Virus record (IMG/VR): IMGVR_UViG_2609459840_000006
Source of the DNA: a virus
Taxonomy: Duplodnaviria; Heunggongvirae; Uroviricota; Caudoviricetes
Reading direction: 5' to 3' (one strand)
Length of the DNA: 8,504 nt
In this document: positions 1 to 8,504 of the stretch, piece after piece
How positions within the stretch are numbered: position 1 is the stretch's first letter
Layout: the number at the start of each line of letters is the position of its first letter
Made by a program: the position numbers and the translations under genes
The notes under the pieces: generated by a model
Database searches by the model: none
What the model was told of the DNA's origin: nothing
The model's input: the letters and a program-made list of their open reading frames with translations, nothing else

Positions 1-146
1 CTTACACCGCTTCTCAACCCGGTACGCACCAGAAAATCATTGATATGGCCATGAATGGCGTTGGATGCCGGGCAACTGCCCGCATTATGGGCGTTGGCCT
101 CAACACGATTTTACGTCACTTAAAAAACTCAGGCCGCAGTCGGTAA
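1..146 (+). CDS. insA: IS1 InsA, C-terminal part (5'-partial; frame starts at nt 3)
   Basis: Frame 3 reads [47 protein letters not shown] then TAA at 144-146, matching the InsA C-terminus as I recall it. Confidence 0.85.
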
Positions 147-568
147 CCTCGCGCATACAGCCGGGCAGTGACGTCATCGTCTGCGCGGAAATGGACGAAC
201 AGTGGGGCTATGTCGGGGCTAAATCGCGCCAGCGCTGGCTGTTTTACGCGTATGACAGTCTCCGGAAGACGGTTGTTGCGCACGTATTCGGTGAACGCAC
301 TATGGCGACGCTGGGGCGTCTTATGAGCCTGCTGTCACCCTTTGACGTGGTGATATGGATGACGGATGGCTGGCCGCTGTATGAATTCCGCCTGAAGGGA
401 AAGCTGCACGTAATCAGCAAGCGATATACGCAGCGAATTGAGCGGCATAACCTGAATCTGAGGCAGCACCTGGCACGGCTGGGACGGAAGTCGCTGTCGT
501 TCTCAAAATCGGTGGAGCTGCATGACAAAGTCATCGGGCATTATCTGAACATAAAACACTATCAATAA
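65..568 (+). CDS. insB: IS1 InsB frame; in vivo expressed as InsAB' transposase by -1 frameshift at the A6C motif (122-128)
   Basis: 167-aa ORF in the -1 frame relative to insA. The slippery run ttaaaaaac at 120-128 sits in the insA/insB overlap, and the stop at 566-568 lies inside the right IR. Confidence 0.85.
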
Positions 569-583
569 GTTGGAGTCATTACC
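561..583. repeat. IS1 right terminal inverted repeat (23 bp)
   Basis: atcaataagttggagtcattacc is the reverse complement of the canonical IS1 end ggtaatgactccaacttattgat. Confidence 0.75.
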
Positions 584-589
584 AAAGTT

Positions 590-625
590 ATTAAAAATGG
601 GGCGTTGAAACGCCCCCAAAAATAA
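590..625 (-). terminator. Rho-independent terminator, probably for the porin transcript
   Basis: GC stem ggggcg/cgcccc (599-604 / 611-616) with loop ttgaaa; on the minus strand it is followed by a U-run (atttttaa). It lies 14 bp from the IS1 end. Confidence 0.5.
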
Positions 626-654
626 AGGGTAATATATAACAGAAGGTTTGTATA

Positions 655-740
655 GTTAGAAGCAAGGTTGTGCTTCTAAAGGAAGTGGCTTGAGGGAGCC
701 ACTTATATGTTGGGGAGGCAAAGCCTCCCACAACATATCT
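655..740. other. Three consecutive stem-loops in the porin 3' region
   Basis: agaagca-aggttg-tgcttct (659-678); gtggct-tgaggg-agccac (685-702); and a long hairpin atatgttggggaggc-aaa-gcctcccacaacatat (705-738, about 15 bp stem with one bulge), followed on the plus strand by cttttag. Confidence 0.4.
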
Positions 741-753
741 TTTAGTAATCAAA

Positions 754-1836
754 TTAGAACTGGTAAACCATACCTACAGCAACGATATCATCGGTAGCAA
801 CGCCAGATGCTTTCGTGAAATCGCTCTTATCAATCAGGTTGATTTTGTAGTCAACAAAAGTGGACATATTTTTGTTGAAGTAATAGGTTGCACCTACATC
901 AACATATTCAACCAGGTCCTGATCACCCCAAACACCCAAGTCTTTTCCTTTAGAATGCAGGTAAGCAACGGATGGACGCAGGCCGAAGTCGAACTGATAT
1001 TGTGCAACAGCTTCGAAGTTTTGTGCTTTGTTGGCAATATGGTTATTACCAAAAACAGTCATGTTCTGGGTTTCAGAATAGGTGGTGGCCAGATAGATGT
1101 TGTTCGCATCATATTTCAGACCAGCTGCCCATACTTCAGCATTTTGACCAGAAGCATTCAGACCGTTGTTACCGTAGATAACCTGATTATTAGTGCGATC
1201 AGATTTAGCATAGGTTGCACCCACGCCGAATCCTTCATACTCATAAGTAGTTGAGAAACCGAAACCATCGCCATTAGCTTCAGTTACTTCATTTCGGTCA
1301 TTTTTGCCCTGATACTGAGCTGCAAAGTTCAGGCCATCAACCAGACCAAAGAAGTCGTTGTTACGATAAGTTGCAACACCTGTGGTGCGACCAGTCATGA
1401 ATACATCTGTTTGGGTCCAGGTATCGCCACCGAATTCTGGCAGAACGTCAGTCCACGCACCGATGTCGTATGCTACACCGTAGTTACGGCCGTAATCGAT
1501 TGAGCCGTAGTCACCGAATTTCAGGCCTGCAAATGCAAGACGGGTTTTGTCTTTGGAGGAACCTTGAGATTCAGCGCGGTTGCCTTTGAATTCATATTCC
1601 CACTGACCGAAACCAGTCAGTTGATCGTTGATTTGGGTTTCACCTTTGAAGCCAAGACGGGCATAAGTAGTATCACCATCATCTGCATCATTAGAGGAGA
1701 AGTAGTGCTTAGCATTAACTTTCCCGTACAGATCCAGCTTGTTACTGTCTTTATTATAAATTTCAGCTGCCTGAGCAGACATCGCCATCAGTACTGATGC
1801 AGCTACAGCAGAAATTGCCACTGTTAATTTTTTCAT
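754..1836 (-). CDS. nmpC: Outer-membrane general porin, NmpC / phage Lc type (OmpC/OmpF/PhoE family), 360 aa
   Basis: N-terminal signal peptide [23 protein letters not shown]|AEIYNK, porin motifs throughout and the C-terminal aromatic ..VGMVYQF. The sequence matches my memory of NmpC/Lc. ATG at 1834-1836 on the minus strand. Confidence 0.9.
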
Positions 1837-2165
1837 CGTGAGCCCTTTTTTTTGAACTATTATTAAAAAATGATGTCACTGCGCGATAAATATTCATCTA
1901 ATCAATGTGATTATTTCAAGATGTAAGTTTTAGTTTCTCATTTAATTTGTGAAGTAGATCTCTATTTTTATCTGAACTTTTTCTATCGAAACCTATTTAT
2001 GGCTCTTATTTGAACAAAAATAAACCTATTAGCTAATTTATATTAATGGCTGTTATTTATGGGGGTTCTATAATTCGGCAGTTTAATTTAAATCAACTAA
2101 AAATAACGTCTGAAATTATTTATTGGTTATTTGTTGAGGTTTTCTTATGTATTTGTGGTGGAGTT

Positions 2166-2194
2166 TTGAACACTCGGTAGCATTCTCATAAATA
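2166..2194 (+). promoter_or_regulatory. Candidate sigma70 late promoter (pR'-like) upstream of the lysis cassette
   Basis: TTGAAC (2166-2171), 17-bp spacer, TAAATA (2189-2194); resembles lambda pR' (TTGACT-17-TAAATT) as I recall it. A weak hairpin plus T-runs at about 2259-2300 could be a tR'-like terminator. Unverified. Confidence 0.25.
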
Positions 2195-2424
2195 TCATTC
2201 AGCGGTTTACGTACGTAAAAAATTGGTTATGCTGTTAAGAGTGGTTACTTCGTCACACAGCTTAAACCCGCCGTCGAGCTGGTTTTTCCATTTTTTGAGT
2301 CTCGATATTAGCTGATAACTCAATACCTGAGTTATTCACTGACTCCGAGTCTGTTACGTTTCTGCTTTTTTGCGATACGTTGTATTCCCTCAATTTACAC
2401 CCGCTTTGTCTGCGAGGTGGGGTT

Positions 2425-2640
2425 ATGAAATCCATGGATAAGTTAACAACGGGTGTCGCCTATGGCACCTCAGCAGGTAGTGCCGGTTACTGGTTTTTAC
2501 AGCTGCTCGATAAAGTCACGCCCTCACAGTGGGCAGCAATAGGTGTGCTGGGTAGCCTGGTATTTGGCCTGCTGACGTACCTGACAAACCTTTATTTCAA
2601 GATTAAAGAAGATAAGCGCAAGGCTGCGAGAGGTGAATAA
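2425..2640 (+). CDS. S: Class II holin (pinholin), phage 21 S-type, 71 aa with dual-start motif
   Basis: [28 protein letters not shown].. with Met1-Lys2-Ser3-Met4 dual start and two TMDs, close to S21 from memory. Strong SD gaggtgg upstream of the ATG at 2425. The track's start at 2380 is a TTG extension and was rejected. Confidence 0.88.
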
Positions 2641-3137
2641 TGCCTCCATCATTACGAAAAGCCGTTGCTGCTGCTATTGGTGGCGGAGCAATTGCTATAG
2701 CATCAGTGTTAATCACTGGCCCAAGTGGTAACGATGGTCTGGAAGGTGTCAGCTACATACCATACAAAGATATTGTTGGTGTATGGACTGTATGTCACGG
2801 GCATACAGGAAAAGACATCATGCTCGGTAAAACGTATACCAAAGCAGAATGCAAAGCCCTCCTGAATAAAGACCTTGCCACGGTCGCCAGACAAATTAAC
2901 CCGTACATAAAAGTTGATATACCGGAAACAACGCGCGGCGCTCTTTACTTGTTCGTTTACAACGTGGGCGCTGGCAATTTCAGAACATCGACGCTTCTTC
3001 GCAAAATAAACCAGGGCGATATCAAAGGCGCATGTGATCAGCTACGTCGCTGGACATATGCTGGCGGTAAGCAATGGAAAGGTCTCATGACTCGTCGTGA
3101 GATTGAGCGTGAAATCTGTTTGTGGGGTCAGCAATGA
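2640..3137 (+). CDS. R: SAR endolysin (phage 21 R-type lysozyme), 165 aa
   Basis: N-terminal Gly/Ala-rich signal-anchor-release segment ([20 protein letters not shown]) and catalytic residues at E35, D44, T50 as in R21. The ATG overlaps the holin stop (TAATG). Confidence 0.9.
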
Positions 3138-3601
3138 ACAGAGTAACCGCGATTATCTCCGCTCTGGTTATCTGCATCATCGTCTGCCTGTCATGGGCTG
3201 TTAATCATTACCGTGATAATGCAATCGCCTACAAAGAACAGCGCGATAACAAGGCCAGTGAACTGGAGAAGGCGAACGCCACCATTACTGACATGCAGCA
3301 GCGCCAGCGTGATGCTGATGCACTCGATGATAAATACACGAAGGAGTTAGCTGATGCGAAAGCTGAAAATGATGCTCTTCGGCGCAAGCTTGATAATGGT
3401 GGTCGGGTGCTCGTCAAAGGAAAATGCCCTGTGCCATCCTCAGCCGAAACCTCCAGCGCCTCCGGCATGGGCAATGATGCCACCGTCGAACTCTCTCCAG
3501 TTGCTGGACGAAACGTTCTCGGTATCCGGGACGGAATTATCCGCGACCAAACAGCACTGAGAACGCTTCAGGAATACATCAGGACGCAATGCCTTCGATG
3601 A
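3134..3601 (+). CDS. Rz: Rz i-spanin (inner-membrane spanin subunit), 155 aa
   Basis: [30 protein letters not shown].. is near-identical to the lambda Rz N-terminus, with one TMD and a coiled-coil periplasmic domain. The ATG at 3134 overlaps the R stop (ATGA); the track start at 3122 is GTG. Confidence 0.88.
3354..3560 (+). CDS. Rz1: Rz1 o-spanin lipoprotein, embedded in the +1 frame of Rz, 68 aa
   Basis: [19 protein letters not shown].. has a signal peptide with lipobox (VVGC) and a Pro-rich mature part ([16 protein letters not shown]). Strong SD aaggag 7 nt upstream of the ATG. Lies entirely inside Rz. Confidence 0.8.
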
Positions 3602-3775
3602 TAGCGATAATTTTACTCATCATCCTTCACATCTGGCTCTGTAGACAGGGTGGTGCTCACTTCTGGAGTGAATCCAGATTAAACATCTCATTGCTGATGC
3701 TTGATATTGAGCATTTTGCGCGCGGTAAGGGGCTGCGTTGAGATAAGAGCCAGTCATTACAAATACCAGGATTTA

Positions 3776-3801
3776 GCCTCGCATTCGCGGGGCTTTTTAT
3801 T
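3776..3801 (+). terminator. Rho-independent terminator downstream of the lysis cassette
   Basis: gcctcgc-attc-gcggggc (7-bp stem with one G.U pair) followed by tttttatt. Confidence 0.5.
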
Positions 3802-3807
3802 GCCATT

Positions 3808-3840
3808 ACAAAAGCCACTTCCTACAGAGTGGCTTTGATA
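3808..3840 (-). terminator. Rho-independent terminator for the leftward accessory operon
   Basis: aaagccact-tcctacag-agtggcttt; on the minus strand the 3' arm runs into cttttg. Confidence 0.45.
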
Positions 3841-3882
3841 ATGGCTTATACCCTACACGGGATAACTTAACTGATATCCCTT

Positions 3883-4047
3883 TTAAAGGATAAAGGTATT
3901 CAAGCCTGACACATCATGCGCTGTATCGTCGCCGTATTCCCGTATTAACAGAGACCGTAGCCCGACGGGGAACTCCTTCTGCGCGAGTGTGTGGGAATAA
4001 TCAAAAACGATGCACACCGGGGTTACCGGGTACACATATTTCATCAT
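3883..4047 (-). CDS. Hypothetical small protein, 54 aa (absent from the ORF track, apparently because of a length cutoff)
   Basis: Hand translation: MMKYVYPVTPVCIVFDYSHTLAQKEFPVGLRSLLIREYGDDTAHDVSGLNTFIL*. It lies 45 bp downstream of the ybcV-like stop and just upstream of the minus-strand terminator. The SD is weak. Confidence 0.3.
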   Translation of the reverse strand: MMKYVYPVTPVCIVFDYSHTLAQKEFPVGLRSLLIREYGDDTAHDVSGLNTFIL

Positions 4048-4092
4048 GCCAGCGAGTCCGGTTCTGGCACGGAAGAAACCGGACGTTATGAT

Positions 4093-4503
4093 TTAGTGCG
4101 GAAATATTTGTGTAGTGTTCTGAATGTTCTCAGTAAAGAGTAATGAATTATCAAAGGTATAGTAATACCTTTTGTTTTCGTGGATATTTGTAATCCATCT
4201 GAAAACCCCTGCTGTAGCAAGATTTTTCCTGTATTCGTAAAATGATAACTCTCCTGATTTGAATCCTTTTAAGGTGGCTTCTATAAGGCATTTATTTTTT
4301 GAAAATCTTACATTTACAACCTTACCCTGTCCTTTTATTAAAACCGTATTATCGTTTTCAAGAACAAGATGAATATTCTCTGTGGCTAAATAGTAAATGT
4401 AATGTGAGACATTGTGACGTTTTAGTTCAGAATAAAACCAGTGATAGTTTAAATTATTTCGCACTTTATCGAATATTTGTTTAAAAATGGCAACCTGAGC
4501 CAT
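4093..4503 (-). CDS. ybcV: DUF1398 / YbcV-like prophage protein, 136 aa from the second ATG
   Basis: [80 protein letters not shown] resembles E. coli DLP12 YbcV as I remember it (unverified). The ATG at 4503 has SD ggaagg; the upstream ATG at 4518 has none. Markedly AT-rich. Confidence 0.75.
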
Positions 4504-4559
4504 TGTAGTACCTTCCATGTGATATGAGGGGTGTAGTCTGCACGATTATCTAAATTGCT

Positions 4560-4793
4560 TCAATCTGGTCTGATCTGTTTTCTGAGCAATTCAGTAATGT
4601 CACTCTTTTCTTTGTTTGCTTCAGGAGAAACTCTTTTTTCTGAGCACAGTCTCCGGCGGCAGGCTTCAATGACCCAGGCTGAGAAATTCCCGGACCCTTT
4701 TTGATCAAGAGCGATGTTAATTTGTTCAATCATTTGGTTAGGAAAGCGGATGTTGCGGGTTGTTGTTCTGCGGGTTCTGTTCTTCGTTGACAT
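4560..4793 (-). CDS. Ribbon-helix-helix DNA-binding protein, DUF3950 / YlcI-like, 77 aa
   Basis: Basic N-terminal arm (KNRTRRTTTR), then a beta-strand (NIRFP), helix (NQMIEQINIALDQ), KGSGN turn and helix (FSAWVIEACRRRL): the Arc/MetJ/CopG RHH pattern. Resembles DLP12 YlcI from memory. ATG at 4793. Confidence 0.7.
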   Translation of the reverse strand: MSTKNRTRRTTTRNIRFPNQMIEQINIALDQKGSGNFSAWVIEACRRRLCSEKRVSPEANKEKSDITELLRKQIRPD

Positions 4794-4992
4794 GAGGTTG
4801 TCCCGTATTCAGTGTCGCTGATTTGTATTGTCTGAAGTTGTTTTTACGTTAAGTTGATGCAGATCAATTAATACGATACCTGCGTCATAATTGATTATTT
4901 GACGTGGTTTGATGGCGTAGATGCACGTTGTGACATGCAGATGATAATTATTATCATTTTGCGGGTCCTTTCCGGCGATCCGACAGGTTACG

Positions 4993-5004
4993 GGGCGGCG
5001 ACCT
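4993..5004. other. cosN 12-nt cohesive-end sequence (gggcggcgacct)
   Basis: Exact match to the lambda cohesive end GGGCGGCGACCT, preceded by ..aggttacg, the lambda right end. Confidence 0.8.
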
Positions 5005-5101
5005 CGCGGGTTTTCGCTATTTATGAAAATTTTCCGGTTTAAGGTGTTTCCGTTCTTCTTCGTCGTAACTTAATGTTTTTATTTAAAATACCCCCTGAAA
5101 A

Positions 5102-5156
5102 GAAAGGAAACGACAGGTGCTGAAAGCGAGCTTTTTGGCCTCTGTCGTTTCCTTTC
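5102..5156. repeat. cosB R-element inverted repeat (terminase small-subunit binding sites R2/R1)
   Basis: Perfect 15-bp inverted repeat gaaaggaaacgacag (5102-5116) / ctgtcgtttcctttc (5142-5156), separated by 25 bp; a related tttccgttcttcttcg lies at about 5047-5062 (R3-like). Confidence 0.6.
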
Positions 5157-5181
5157 TCTGTTTTTGTCCGTGGAATGAACA

Positions 5182-5727
5182 ATGGAAGTCAACAAAAAGC
5201 AGCTGGCTGACATTTTCGGTGCGAGTATCCGTACCATTCAGAACTGGCAGGAACAGGGAATGCCCGTTCTGCGAGGCGGTGGCAAGGGTAATGAGGTGCT
5301 TTATGACTCTGCCGCCGTCATAAAATGGTATGCCAAAAGGGATGCTGAAATTGAGAACGAAAAGCTGCGCCGGGAGGTTGAAGAACTGCGGCAGGCCAGC
5401 GAGGCAGATCTCCAGCCAGGGACTATTGAGTACGAACGCCATCGACTTACGCGTGCGCAGGCCGACGCACAGGAACTGAAGAATGCCAGAGACTCCGCTG
5501 AAGTGGTGGAAACCGCATTCTGTACTTTCGTGTTGTCGCGGATCGCAGGTGAAATTGCCAGTATTCTCGACGGGATCCCCCTGTCGGTGCAGCGGCGTTT
5601 TCCGGAACTGGAAAACCGACATGTTGATTTCCTGAAACGGGATATCATCAAAGCCATGAACAAAGCAGCCGCGCTGGATGAACTGATACCGGGGTTGCTG
5701 AGTGAATATATCGAACAGTCAGGTTAA
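5182..5727 (+). CDS. nu1: Terminase small subunit Nu1, 181 aa
   Basis: MEVNKKQLADIFGASIRTIQNWQEQGMPVLRGGGKGNEVLYDSAAVIKWY.. is essentially identical to lambda gpNu1 from memory, with a winged-HTH N-terminus. The 3' end overlaps the A start as in lambda. Confidence 0.95.
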   Translation: MEVNKKQLADIFGASIRTIQNWQEQGMPVLRGGGKGNEVLYDSAAVIKWYAKRDAEIENEKLRREVEELRQASEADLQPGTIEYERHRLTRAQADAQELKNARDSAEVVETAFCTFVLSRIAGEIASILDGIPLSVQRRFPELENRHVDFLKRDIIKAMNKAAALDELIPGLLSEYIEQSG

Positions 5728-7168
5728 CAGGCTGCGGCATTTTGTCCGCGCCGGGCTTCGCTCACTGTTCAGGCCGGAGCCACAGACCGCCGTTGAATGG
5801 GCGGATGCTAATTACTATCTCCCGAAAGAATCCGCATACCAGGAAGGGCGCTGGGAAACACTGCCCTTTCAGCGGGCCATCATGAATGCGATGGGCAGCG
5901 ACTACATCCGCGAGGTGAATGTGGTGAAGTCTGCCCGTGTTGGTTATTCCAAAATGCTGTTGGGTGTTTATGCCTACTTCATAGAGCATAAGCAGCGCAA
6001 CACACTTATCTGGTTGCCGACGGATGGTGATGCCGAGAACTTTATGAAAACCCACGTTGAGCCGACCATCCGCGATATTCCGTTGCTGCTGGCGCTGGCT
6101 CCGTGGTATGGCAAAAAGCACCGGGATAACACGCTCACCATGAAGCGTTTTTCCAATGGTCGTGGCTTCTGGTGCCTGGGCGGTAAAGCGGCAAAAAACT
6201 ACCGTGAAAAGTCGGTGGATGTGGCGGGGTATGATGAACTTGCTGCCTTTGATGAGGATATTGAACAGGAAGGCTCTCCGACGTTCCTTGGCGACAAACG
6301 TATTGAAGGCTCGGTCTGGCCAAAGTCCATCCGTGGCTCCACCCCCAAAGTGAGAGGTACCTGCCAGATTGAGCGTGCAGCCAGTGAATCCCCGCATTTT
6401 ATGCGTTTTCATGTTGCCTGTCCGCACTGCGGGGAGGAGCAGTACCTTAAATTTGGCGATAAAGAGACGTCGTTTGGCCTCAAATGGACGCCGGATGATC
6501 CCTCCAGCGTGTTTTATCTCTGCGAACATAATGCCTGCGTCATCCGCCAGCAGGAACTGGACTTCACTGATGCCCGTTATATCTGCGAAAAGACCGGGAT
6601 CTGGACCCGTGATGGCATTCTCTGGTTTTCGTCATCCGGTGAAGAGATTGAGCCGCCGGACAGCGTGACCTTTCACATCTGGACGGCGTACAGCCCGTTC
6701 ACCACCTGGGTGCAGATTGTCAAAGACTGGATGAAAACGAAAGGGGATACGGGAAAACGTAAAACCTTCGTAAACACCACGCTCGGTGAGACGTGGGAGG
6801 CGAAAATTGGCGAACGTCCGGATGCTGAAGTGATGGCAGAGCGGAAAGAGCATTATTCAGCGCCCGTTCCTGACCGTGTGGCTTACCTGACCGCCGGTAT
6901 CGACTCCCAGCTGGATCGCTACGAAATGCGCGTATGGGGATGGGGGCCGGGTGAGGAAAGCTGGCTGATTGACCGGCAGATTATTATGGGCCGCCACGAC
7001 GATGAACAGACGCTGCTGCGTGTGGATGAGGCCATCAATAAAACCTATACCCGCCGGAATGGTGCAGAAATGTCGGTATCCCGTATCTGCTGGGATACTG
7101 GCGGGATTGATCCGACCATTGTGTATGAACGCTCGAAAAAACATGGGCTGTTCCGGGTGATCCCATAA
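5702..7168 (+). pseudogene. A: Terminase large subunit A, truncated after codon 488 by IS186
   Basis: GTG start (as in lambda); MNISNSQVNRLRHFVRAGLRSLF... is near-identical to lambda gpA through ..KKHGLFRVIP, then TAA at 7166-7168 inside the IS186 terminal repeat. Lambda gpA is 641 aa, so about 150 C-terminal residues are missing from this reading frame. Confidence 0.9.
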
Positions 7169-7186
7169 GCGCTAACTTAAGGGTTG
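7164..7186. repeat. IS186 terminal inverted repeat (gene A-proximal end)
   Basis: cataagcgctaacttaagggttg; its reverse complement is found at 8480-8502. Confidence 0.75.
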
Positions 7187-7334
7187 AACCATCTGAAGAA
7201 TGCGACGCCTCGGTGCCTCGTTAAGACGATGCCTCGCGTTCTTCAATTGCGTTTTGTAGGCTGTCAGGGATACTGTCCCACGAATGGCCACCTGTAAGCT
7301 CCAGATGACCATTTTTGTTATTCTCCACAACGAG

Positions 7335-8447
7335 TTAGTTCTTCTTTTCGGATCCGGCACTTCTGGGGGGGAAATCCAGCGATGGCTGGATTATGTCGTC
7401 AATTAAAAATGCGGCGAGTAGATTAGCAAATATCCACGCTTTCGCGAGTTCAGGTTCCTTTGCACGCAAAGCATCCAGGTGCAGCAAACTTTTGAGCCGC
7501 TTAAAAGCCAGTTCAATTTGCCATCGCAGACGGTAACAATCAGCCACTTGCTCTGCTGAATATTCATCTTCCGGTAATGATGTTAGCAATAGCACATGGC
7601 CCGCTGCTTCCAGCGTTTCCGCCTGAACTACTCGTCCTTTTCGACGATTCTCGCTGAGCAGTCGGGTTTTACTGATTAATGCTTTTTCGGGAGGAAGTGA
7701 TACGGCAATGAGACGTGCCGGAAAGGGAGCTCCGGCTTTTTTATTACCTGAATTGCCTATCATTACAGTGGTTTCACCGTTCTTACCGCAATCCAGCCCG
7801 CGCAGAAAACCCATCATGTCAAAGCGCATTCCTTCTGCAGTTAACCAGCGCAATCCTCGCCAGTGAACCCGGACGATATAATCAGCTTCTCCAAAAGCAA
7901 GTGAGCGGATACATTCGGGACGCGAACCGAATCCCCGGTCAGCAATGCGTATCTCGTCTGCCGTTTGCGCAAATCGGTCCAGCCGTTCAGCGTCTCTGCT
8001 GTCGGTTAGCTCAAAATCAGTGAACTGACAGGTATGAGGATCATATCCCATATGTAGTCGCCATTCAGCGCTGCCGCCCCCGGGCGCACTGATTGCTGTT
8101 CCATCGACAAGACGCAATCTCTTTCCGCTTGTACAACCCGTAACTGCGGCGCGTACAGCAAGTGTTTGTGCGGCAAGTATGCCAAACCAGTCGGCGGCAT
8201 TCCGCAGCCGCTTCAGGAGAGCCACGTCAGATAATGTTGCAACGTCATGGAGCTGAGCCCATGCAGTGACTTCACGTAATGACATCCCCCCGGGGCCGTA
8301 AGCCAGCCCCAGACGTAGCAGAGTTGCAGCATCACGAATTTCGCGGCGGCGGGTTAGAGCCCCGGCATTACGTGCCGAAGTATCCAGTTCTTCGGGCTTA
8401 CCAATATGGGCCAGAATTGCTGACCAGTTATCGTGAGAGTAATTCAT
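7335..8447 (-). CDS. IS186 transposase (IS4-family DDE transposase), 370 aa
   Basis: MNYSHDNWSAILAHIGKPEELDTSARNAGALTRRREIRD.. matches the IS186 transposase as I recall it. ATG at 8447; the track start at 8453 is GTG. Confidence 0.9.
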   Translation of the reverse strand: MNYSHDNWSAILAHIGKPEELDTSARNAGALTRRREIRDAATLLRLGLAYGPGGMSLREVTAWAQLHDVATLSDVALLKRLRNAADWFGILAAQTLAVRAAVTGCTSGKRLRLVDGTAISAPGGGSAEWRLHMGYDPHTCQFTDFELTDSRDAERLDRFAQTADEIRIADRGFGSRPECIRSLAFGEADYIVRVHWRGLRWLTAEGMRFDMMGFLRGLDCGKNGETTVMIGNSGNKKAGAPFPARLIAVSLPPEKALISKTRLLSENRRKGRVVQAETLEAAGHVLLLTSLPEDEYSAEQVADCYRLRWQIELAFKRLKSLLHLDALRAKEPELAKAWIFANLLAAFLIDDIIQPSLDFPPRSAGSEKKN

Positions 8448-8479
8448 CGGCACGTTAAATCATATCAGGCGTAATACCA

Positions 8480-8502
8480 CAACCCTTAAGTTAGCGCTTA
8501 TG
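8480..8502. repeat. IS186 terminal inverted repeat (transposase-proximal end)
   Basis: caacccttaagttagcgcttatg is the reverse complement of 7164-7186. Confidence 0.75.
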
Positions 8503-8504
8503 GG

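What the first reader, a model, noticed from the sequence alone, without database searches (positions are those of the whole stretch)
5702..7190. Terminase large subunit A is cut by IS186, so the prophage should be packaging-defective
The gpA frame matches lambda up to ..HGLFRVIP and then stops at a TAA created by the IS186 terminal repeat (junction ..gggtgatcc|cataagcgc). The C-terminal quarter of gpA is separated from the reading frame. From memory the insertion point in lambda A reads GATCCCCATTAAAGGGGC, a G/C-palindromic motif of the kind IS186 prefers. The flank is ..gatcc on the left and gg on the right, but the right junction is at the window edge.
Basis: partly seen in the sequence, partly recalled or inferred. 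Interest (0 to 1): 0.5.

Follow-up and report, generated by a model that had tools for sequence, protein, structure and literature searches.

The report
IS186 insertion in prophage terminase gene
A copy of the insertion sequence IS186 really does cut the large terminase gene of a lambda-like prophage, but that prophage had almost certainly already lost all its early and regulatory genes, so this is ordinary further decay of a dead prophage.

Summary
Window 5702-7168 encodes the first 488 of 641 residues of a lambda-type gpA (5 aa differences from lambda). It ends at a TAA supplied by the terminal repeat of a 1,339-bp element (7164-8502) that is 100% identical to K-12 IS186A. The lost part covers about 40% of the nuclease domain, the coiled-coil helix and the portal-binding tail, so the product cannot work.

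The interpretation needs three corrections.
1. The window is a whole draft-assembly contig that breaks at repeats. The right-hand "gg" follows every IS186 copy and says nothing about this copy's flank, so whether A continues after the IS could not be observed.
2. The target is GGG-TGAT-CCCC, ending at the junction.
3. The IS1 at the left end of the window has the same junction as in the only three complete genomes that share it. In all three, that IS1 replaces everything from the integrase N-terminus through Q.

IS186 therefore most likely hit a prophage that was already non-inducible. No complete E. coli genome carries this insertion. Ordinary and low interest.

The parts
1..583 (+). Right-hand 583 nt of an IS1 (contig starts inside it). 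Probable endpoint of a deletion that removed the prophage early region.
   Evidence: Pfam DDE_Tnp_IS1. One mismatch in 700 nt against EC6, with an identical IS1/phage junction in ET76 and EC6. In ET76 and EC6 this IS1 has no target-site duplication and abuts an integrase fragment.
584..753 (.). Spacer that in the complete prophage (PSS-13) begins 18 nt after the stop of the Q-type antiterminator gene quuD. Contains the porin gene's terminator hairpin (599-616, minus strand).
754..1836 (-). Phage-borne general porin gene (360 aa)
   Evidence: Pfam Porin_1, E = 3.6e-152. Annotated ompC in relatives.
2425..3601 (+). Lysis cassette: phage-21-type holin (2425-2640), lysozyme (2640-3137), Rz (3134-3601) with embedded Rz1 (3354-3560)
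   Evidence: Pfam Phage_holin_2_1, Phage_lysozyme and Phage_lysis. Rz1 ORF with lipobox VVGC.
4993..5181 (+). cos region: cosN 12-nt cohesive-end sequence GGGCGGCGACCT (4993-5004) followed by cosB
   Evidence: 97.9% identical to lambda 1-190.
5182..5727 (+). Nu1, terminase small subunit, intact (181 aa)
   Evidence: Pfam Phage_Nu1, E = 4.5e-100. 99.3% nt identity to lambda with 2 aa differences.
5702..7168 (+). Truncated terminase large subunit gene A: 488 codons plus a TAA. A-derived DNA ends at 7163 (7164 is ambiguous); the stop at 7166-7168 comes from the IS.
7155..7163 (+). Left half of the IS186 target GGG-TGAT-CC(CC). Predicted left copy of an 8-bp duplication GGTGATCC at 7156-7163.
   Evidence: The only G>=3-N3-6-C>=3 motif in gene A, with the same geometry as the three K-12 IS186 copies. 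The duplication itself was not observed.
7164..8502 (-). IS186, complete (1,339 bp). Inverted repeats at 7164-7186 and 8480-8502; transposase ORF at 7335-8447/8453 on the minus strand, antiparallel to A.
   Evidence: 1339/1339 identical to K-12 IS186A. Pfam DDE_Tnp_1.
8503..8504 (.). 'GG' at the contig end. Expected after any IS186 copy, so it does not identify this copy's flank.
   Evidence: All three K-12 copies read CTTATG|GG. The window is the whole contig.

Best explanation
A cut-and-paste insertion of IS186 landed in the only IS186-type target inside gene A (GGG-TGAT-CCCC, codons 484-488) of a lambda-like prophage at the classical lambda attachment site between ybhC and ybhB.

Shown:
- The IS terminal repeat supplies an immediate TAA. 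The gene now encodes only residues 1-488: the Nu1-binding region, the ATPase, and the first roughly 60% of the nuclease domain.

Inferred from lambda genetics:
- This product cannot cut cos properly or dock on the portal.

Inferred from three genomes that share the same IS1 junction:
- The prophage had already lost everything from the integrase N-terminus through the repressor, replication genes and the Q antiterminator, by an IS1-associated deletion.
- It could therefore no longer be induced, replicate or transcribe its late operon.
- The IS186 hit is a later and probably neutral step in prophage decay, placed by the transposase's target preference and not by selection.

Predicted, not observed:
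- The rest of A lies just beyond the contig end, following a second copy of GGTGATCC. W, B and the other head and tail genes come after it.
For: Identity of the IS and the junction.

Domain loss. The functions of the lost part are described in PMC9026076 and PMC4856287.

Target geometry: K-12 IS186A, B and C all lie in GGGG-N6-CCCC with a 10-bp GG-N6-CC duplication and CC|IS|GG flanks. Gene A has exactly one comparable motif, and the IS sits in it with the same geometry.

State before insertion:
- ET76, ES1 and EC6 are about 100% identical to window 582-7164. They carry an intact 641-aa A followed by W through J, lom and tail fibres.
- To the left they read ybhC, int fragment, IS1, porin, with no IS1 target duplication.
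- PSS-13 has the same prophage with the full early region and quuD ending 18 nt before the point where the window's IS1 begins.
- Among 5,426 complete genomes, only these three have the window's IS1 junction as one contiguous match, and the same three alone have the int-fragment/IS1 junction as a contiguous 100% match.

Order of events: no complete genome has IS186 at this site in either orientation. The IS186 event is therefore younger and more private than the IS1 deletion.
Against: - The contig starts inside IS1 and ends at the IS186 edge. Neither the DNA to the left of IS1 nor the DNA to the right of IS186 was seen for this strain.
- The IS1 could have inserted first and the deletion followed only in the ET76/ES1/EC6 branch. 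In that case the window's prophage might still have its early region.
- The target has G3-N4-C4 rather than the G4-N6-C4 of the K-12 copies, so the predicted 8-bp duplication is an extrapolation.
- That the insertion was selectively neutral is assumed, not tested.
Confidence: 0.75

Rival explanations
1. One reading: the prophage is otherwise complete, and the IS186 insertion in A is the lesion that makes it packaging-defective. The IS1 at the left end would then be a simple insertion downstream of Q.
For: The window itself shows intact lysis genes, cos and Nu1. A near-complete prophage that is 100% identical over this region exists in PSS-13. Nothing to the left of the IS1 is visible in this contig.
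Against: All three complete genomes with this exact IS1 junction have the int-to-Q deletion, and that IS1 has no target duplication. The window differs from them by about 1 nt in 6.6 kb, which points to a shared lineage.
Confidence: 0.13
2. IS186 marks a rearrangement rather than a simple insertion. Recombination between IS186 copies, or an adjacent deletion, has removed or relocated the 3' quarter of A and perhaps downstream genes.
For: The right junction is unobserved. The strain has several IS186 copies, which is why the contig breaks there. Other strains carry A genes truncated by deletion, for example E24377A at about codon 519.
Against: The left junction has exactly the geometry of a primary insertion into a G-run/C-run target. 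The 156-aa ORF expected downstream of a break at V486 exists in public assemblies, although it could not be tied to this strain. The closest relatives have an intact late region.
Confidence: 0.1
3. Assembly artefact: gene A and IS186 were joined wrongly by the assembler, and the gene is intact in the cell.
For: The sequence is a short draft contig bounded by repeats. The IS186 body in it is a consensus of all copies in the genome.
Against: A different assembler on Logan run SRR1186646 gives the same junction. The junction drops one C of the CCCC run exactly as a real IS186 end would (CC|CATAAG). It also falls in the single IS186-type target of the gene.
Confidence: 0.02

Closest known systems
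IS186 (IS4 family), copies IS186A/B/C of E. coli K-12 MG1655
   Same: 1,339 bp, 100% identical to IS186A. Same 23-nt inverted repeats and the same transposase. Inserted in a G-run/spacer/C-run target with a CC|IS flank.
   Different: The target here is GGG-N4-CCCC, against GGGG-N6-CCCC in K-12. The duplication could not be seen. This insertion site is absent from all 5,426 complete E. coli genomes searched.
Lambda terminase large subunit gpA (TerL, 641 aa) and its nonsense mutant Aam42
   Same: Same gene, with the same Nu1 overlap and cos upstream. Residues 1-488 differ from lambda at 5 positions. Like Aam42, it lacks the portal-binding C-terminus (PMC4856287).
   Different: The truncation is far larger: 153 residues against 5. 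It also removes part of the nuclease centre and the coiled-coil helix, so cos cutting as well as prohead docking should fail (PMC9026076).
IS1-deleted prophage remnant at the lambda attachment site in E. coli ET76, ES1 and EC6
   Same: About 100% identical DNA from the IS1 junction to codon 488 of A, with the same IS1 junction.
   Different: Those genomes have an intact A and no IS186 at this site.
Cryptic lambdoid remnants with a truncated A gene, such as the one at the same chromosomal site in E24377A. From my own knowledge, not tested here: DLP12 of K-12 with nohD and the aaaD pseudogene.
   Same: Same gene order (porin, lysis genes, DUF1398, ylcI, nohD, A fragment). In E24377A, the same A allele up to the junction.
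   Different: There A is cut by a deletion at about codon 519 that fuses it to a tail-fibre fragment, and all head and tail genes are gone. Here the cut is an IS insertion at codon 488.

Membership tests
IS186 (IS4 family insertion sequence) | Perfect 23-nt terminal inverted repeats CATAAGCGCTAACTTAAGGGTTG | tested here: met
   7164-7186 and 8480-8502.
IS186 (IS4 family insertion sequence) | Full-length identity to a reference IS186 | tested here: met
   1339/1339 identical to K-12 IS186A. K-12 copies B and C are identical to A.
IS186 (IS4 family insertion sequence) | Intact DDE transposase | tested here: met
   370/372-aa ORF at 7335-8453 (-), Pfam DDE_Tnp_1, E = 1.6e-26.
IS186 (IS4 family insertion sequence) | Insertion in a G-run/short spacer/C-run target | tested here: met
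   GGGTGATCCCC is the only such motif in gene A. K-12 copies lie in GGGG-N6-CCCC. The published consensus (SaiSree et al. 2001, seen only as a citation) could not be read.
IS186 (IS4 family insertion sequence) | Direct target-site duplication flanking the element | not testable with these tools
   The contig ends 2 nt after the IS. The predicted right junction was not found in complete genomes, metagenome contigs or species-representative genomes.
Lambda-type terminase large subunit (gpA/TerL), functional | N-terminal ATPase domain | tested here: met
   Pfam GpA_ATPase, residues 47-285, E = 2.8e-50.
Lambda-type terminase large subunit (gpA/TerL), functional | Complete endonuclease domain | tested here: not met
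   GpA_nuclease matched only over profile positions 2-170 of 294. The intact ET76 protein matches 2-286 over residues 322-600.
Lambda-type terminase large subunit (gpA/TerL), functional | C-terminal coiled-coil helix and portal-binding tether | tested here: not met
   The ORF stops after residue 488 of 641. Roles of the missing part are given in PMC9026076 and PMC4856287.
Lambda-type terminase large subunit (gpA/TerL), functional | Partner Nu1 gene and cos immediately upstream | tested here: met
Complete, inducible lambdoid prophage | Q antiterminator gene upstream of the late/lysis region | tested here: not met
   In PSS-13, quuD ends 18 nt before the position equivalent to window 584. In the window that position is occupied by IS1.
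Complete, inducible lambdoid prophage | Integrase, repressor and replication genes | not testable with these tools
   These would lie outside the contig. They are absent in all three complete genomes with the same IS1 junction.
Complete, inducible lambdoid prophage | Head and tail genes downstream of A | not testable with these tools
   These would lie outside the contig. They are present and intact in ET76, EC6 and ES1.

The most novel reading that the evidence does not exclude
GGGTGATCCCC at codons 484-488 of lambdoid A genes may be a recurrent IS186 hot spot, which would make it a repeated, sequence-determined route by which E. coli disables terminase in resident lambdoid prophages. The hint is that the exact 156-aa ORF beginning at V486 (the piece left downstream of a break at this point) occurs on 68 public contigs. 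Against this, only 5 contigs encode the exact 488-aa upstream piece, and no complete genome has IS186 at this site.
Probability: 0.1. Interest if true: 0.25.

Novelty: already known. Interest (0 to 1): 0.1.

Why it matters
It matters little beyond correct annotation. The locus should be annotated as an IS186-disrupted terminase pseudogene inside an already degraded prophage remnant. It should not be treated as a recently inactivated, otherwise functional phage.

There is also a practical lesson. In draft assemblies, contigs end at IS elements, so the bases at the far edge of an IS cannot be read as that copy's flank. A prophage's viability also has to be judged from both ends of the contig.

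Tried and rejected
1. Looked for the same A|IS186 junction in 5,426 complete E. coli genomes. None has it, and a 23-nt-repeat query that works for either orientation also found none.
2. Tried to reach the right flank through contigs encoding the truncated protein. All of them stop at the IS. L003 turned out to be the uninterrupted allele cut by a contig end.
3. Searched for C-terminal gpA fragments and tested the three ORFs expected downstream by exact look-up.
4. Ran exact-pattern scans for the predicted right junction in metagenome contigs and species-representative genomes. Zero hits.
5. Could not read the paper defining the IS186 target consensus, because PMC95536 is not held. The three K-12 copies were used as the empirical standard instead.
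6. Considered E24377A as the pre-insertion state, with A already truncated at codon 519. Rejected, because ET76, ES1 and EC6 match the whole window and E24377A does not.
7. The Rfam scan of the window found nothing. The promoter scan of 584-2440 found no sigma-70-like site, so no surviving late promoter was identified. That is weak evidence only.
8. A literature search for IS186 together with terminase and prophage returned no papers.

Full report
WHAT THE WINDOW IS

The 8,504-nt window is the entire contig JNMU01000082.1 of draft assembly GCA_000700625.1. It begins inside an IS1 and ends two bases beyond an IS186. Both ends are therefore repeat-induced assembly breaks, not natural boundaries.

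Between them lies the late-region start of a lambda-like prophage:
- a phage-borne porin gene (754-1836, minus strand);
- a phage-21-type holin, a lysozyme, and Rz with embedded Rz1 (2425-3601);
- two small minus-strand genes, DUF1398 and YlcI/YnfO;
- cos, with cosN GGGCGGCGACCT at 4993-5004 and the cosN-cosB stretch 97.9% identical to lambda;
- Nu1 (5182-5727, 2 aa differences from lambda);
- gene A, starting at 5702.

CHECKING THE OBSERVATION

The A reading frame starts at the same GTG as in lambda, with the same 26-nt overlap with Nu1. It runs for 488 codons to ..HGLFRVIP. These residues are identical to residues 1-488 of the intact 641-aa gpA of E. coli ET76, which differs from lambda gpA at five positions.

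Codon 488 is CCA (7163-7165), and the next codon is TAA (7166-7168). That stop is made of bases 3-5 of the terminal repeat CATAAGCGCTAACTTAAGGGTTG.

The element defined by the two 23-nt inverted repeats spans 7164-8502. It is 1,339 bp long and identical at every base to IS186A of K-12 MG1655. Its DDE transposase ORF is intact and antiparallel to A.

An independent assembly of a public run (Logan SRR1186646) has the same junction. A third contig that the look-up listed (L003) ends in GATCCCCA, which is the uninterrupted allele cut by a contig end, so it does not count as a second example.

WHAT THE TRUNCATION REMOVES

In the intact protein, Pfam places the ATPase domain at residues 47-285 and the nuclease domain at 322-600. 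In the truncated product the nuclease match stops at profile position 170 of 294. In total 153 residues (23.9%) are lost, 112 of them from the nuclease domain.

According to PMC9026076, the C-terminal domain of lambda TerL holds the endonuclease centre, then a helix proposed to form a coiled coil, then the portal-binding tether. According to PMC4856287, removing only the last five residues (Aam42) prevents docking on the prohead and gives a very low phage yield. This copy of A is therefore a null allele. That is an inference from lambda genetics, not a measurement on this strain.

TARGET SITE AND THE 'GG'

The three K-12 IS186 copies all lie in GGGG-N6-CCCC and are flanked by a 10-bp duplication GG-N6-CC. 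Their ends therefore always read ..CC|CATAAG on one side and CTTATG|GG.. on the other.

Two consequences follow.
- The 'gg' at the window's right edge is what follows any IS186 copy. At a contig that stops where the reads from several copies diverge, it carries no information about this copy's flank.
- The left flank here ends ..CCGGGTGATCC|. That is the same geometry within GGG-TGAT-CCCC, which is the only G>=3-N3-6-C>=3 motif in the whole 1,926-nt A gene.

By analogy, I predict an 8-bp duplication GGTGATCC and a right junction reading CTTATG|GGTGATCCCCATTAAAGG. In the A frame a stop inside the IS end precedes it, so the first possible start for the orphaned 3' piece is the GTG of V486.

WHAT LIES BEYOND THE CONTIG ENDS

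None of the 5,426 complete E. coli genomes has IS186 at this site in either orientation. The predicted right junction is also absent from the metagenome and species-representative collections.

The exact 156-aa ORF starting at V486 exists on 68 public contigs, but the tool would not show its contexts. The exact 488-aa upstream product is on only five contigs, so most of those 68 must come from other lesions.

The continuation of A after the IS is therefore predicted, not observed.

THE STATE OF THE PROPHAGE BEFORE IS186 ARRIVED

Several complete genomes are about 100% identical to window 582-7164.

PSS-13 carries the near-complete prophage. It has exo, bet, gam, a repressor-like S24 peptidase, replication genes and the nin region. 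Its Q-type antiterminator gene quuD ends 18 nt before the base equivalent to window 584.

In ET76, EC6 and ES1 the order is different: host ybhC, an integrase gene lacking its N-terminus, IS1, and then directly the sequence that starts at window 584. Everything from xis to Q is missing. That IS1 has no target-site duplication, as expected for a deletion endpoint.

The window's IS1 (1-583) has the same junction, base for base. Among all the complete genomes, only these three have that junction as one contiguous match, and the same three alone have the int-fragment/IS1 junction as a contiguous 100% match.

To the right, these genomes have an intact A followed by W, B, C, D, E, FI, FII, Z, U, V, G, T, H, M, L, K, I, J, lom and tail-fibre genes, up to ybhB-bioA. 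The element therefore occupies the classical lambda attachment site.

The IS1 deletion is shared with three genomes, while the IS186 insertion is found in none. The parsimonious order is deletion first and IS186 later. A prophage with no repressor, no replication genes, no Q and a truncated integrase cannot be induced or make late proteins, so it could not package DNA whatever the state of A.

This rests on lineage inference. The DNA to the left of the window's IS1 was not seen.

A weak supporting point is that no sigma-70-like promoter was detected between the IS1 and the lysis genes.

MECHANISM AND VERDICT

Most likely (about 0.75), IS186 transposed into the single suitable target in gene A of an already non-inducible remnant and created a null terminase allele. 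The insertion had no further phenotypic consequence, and its position reflects target preference.

The rivals are:
- an IS186-associated rearrangement that removed the 3' end of A (about 0.1);
- a misassembly (about 0.02).

COMPARISON WITH WHAT IS KNOWN

Every component is a textbook entity: IS186, lambda Nu1/A/cos, an IS1-mediated deletion, and a cryptic lambdoid remnant. E24377A shows another way the same A allele has decayed, with a deletion at about codon 519 that fuses it to a tail-fibre fragment. The particular insertion is strain-specific and unreported in the searchable literature, but it is not a new kind of thing.

Novelty: already known. Interest: low.

Noticed in passing
window 1-8504: The window is a complete draft contig bounded by IS1 on the left and IS186 on the right. 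It contains the whole IS186 body plus 2 nt, so the assembler extended through the repeat consensus and stopped where the flanks of the different copies diverge.
   Followed up: yes
window 3354-3560 (+): A 68-aa ORF embedded out of frame inside Rz, with a lipoprotein signal (..VVGC) and a proline-rich body. It looks like an Rz1 outer-membrane spanin.
   Followed up: partly
window 754-1836 (-): An intact 360-aa general porin gene lies between the position of Q and the holin gene, antiparallel to the late operon, with its own terminator hairpin at 599-616. Relatives annotate it as ompC although it is prophage-borne.
   Followed up: partly
not in the window; protein P0100 (gpA residues 486-641 with a GTG start): This exact 156-aa ORF occurs on 68 public contigs, some of them megabases long. 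No complete RefSeq genome has IS186 at the site, and only 5 contigs encode the exact 488-aa upstream product. Other lesions near codon 486 must therefore be common, for example a frameshift in the A6 run at codons 479-480 or a different IS. Contexts could not be retrieved.
   Followed up: partly
L005 (E24377A) 19303-21743: The same A allele is truncated in another way: a deletion at about codon 519 joins it to a tail-fibre fragment and removes all head and tail genes, at the same chromosomal site next to ybhB-bioA.
   Followed up: partly
L006 (ET76) 20121-36583 and L014: In ET76, EC6 and ES1 the whole late operon (A through J, lom, tail fibres and an invertible tail-fibre segment) is annotated as intact ORFs, even though int-N through Q is deleted. 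Either the deletion is recent or something maintains these genes.
   Followed up: no
L003 (GCA_019179075.1), 1-1476: A 1,476-nt contig runs from GGGGTTGCTGAGTG (the end of Nu1) to exactly GATCCCCA, the IS186 target position. It carries the uninterrupted four-C allele. Why the contig breaks at precisely this base was not resolved.
   Followed up: no
L007 (EC6) 16237-16934: EC6 has a second IS1 inserted at the 5' end of the porin gene, a further independent IS hit in the same remnant.
   Followed up: no
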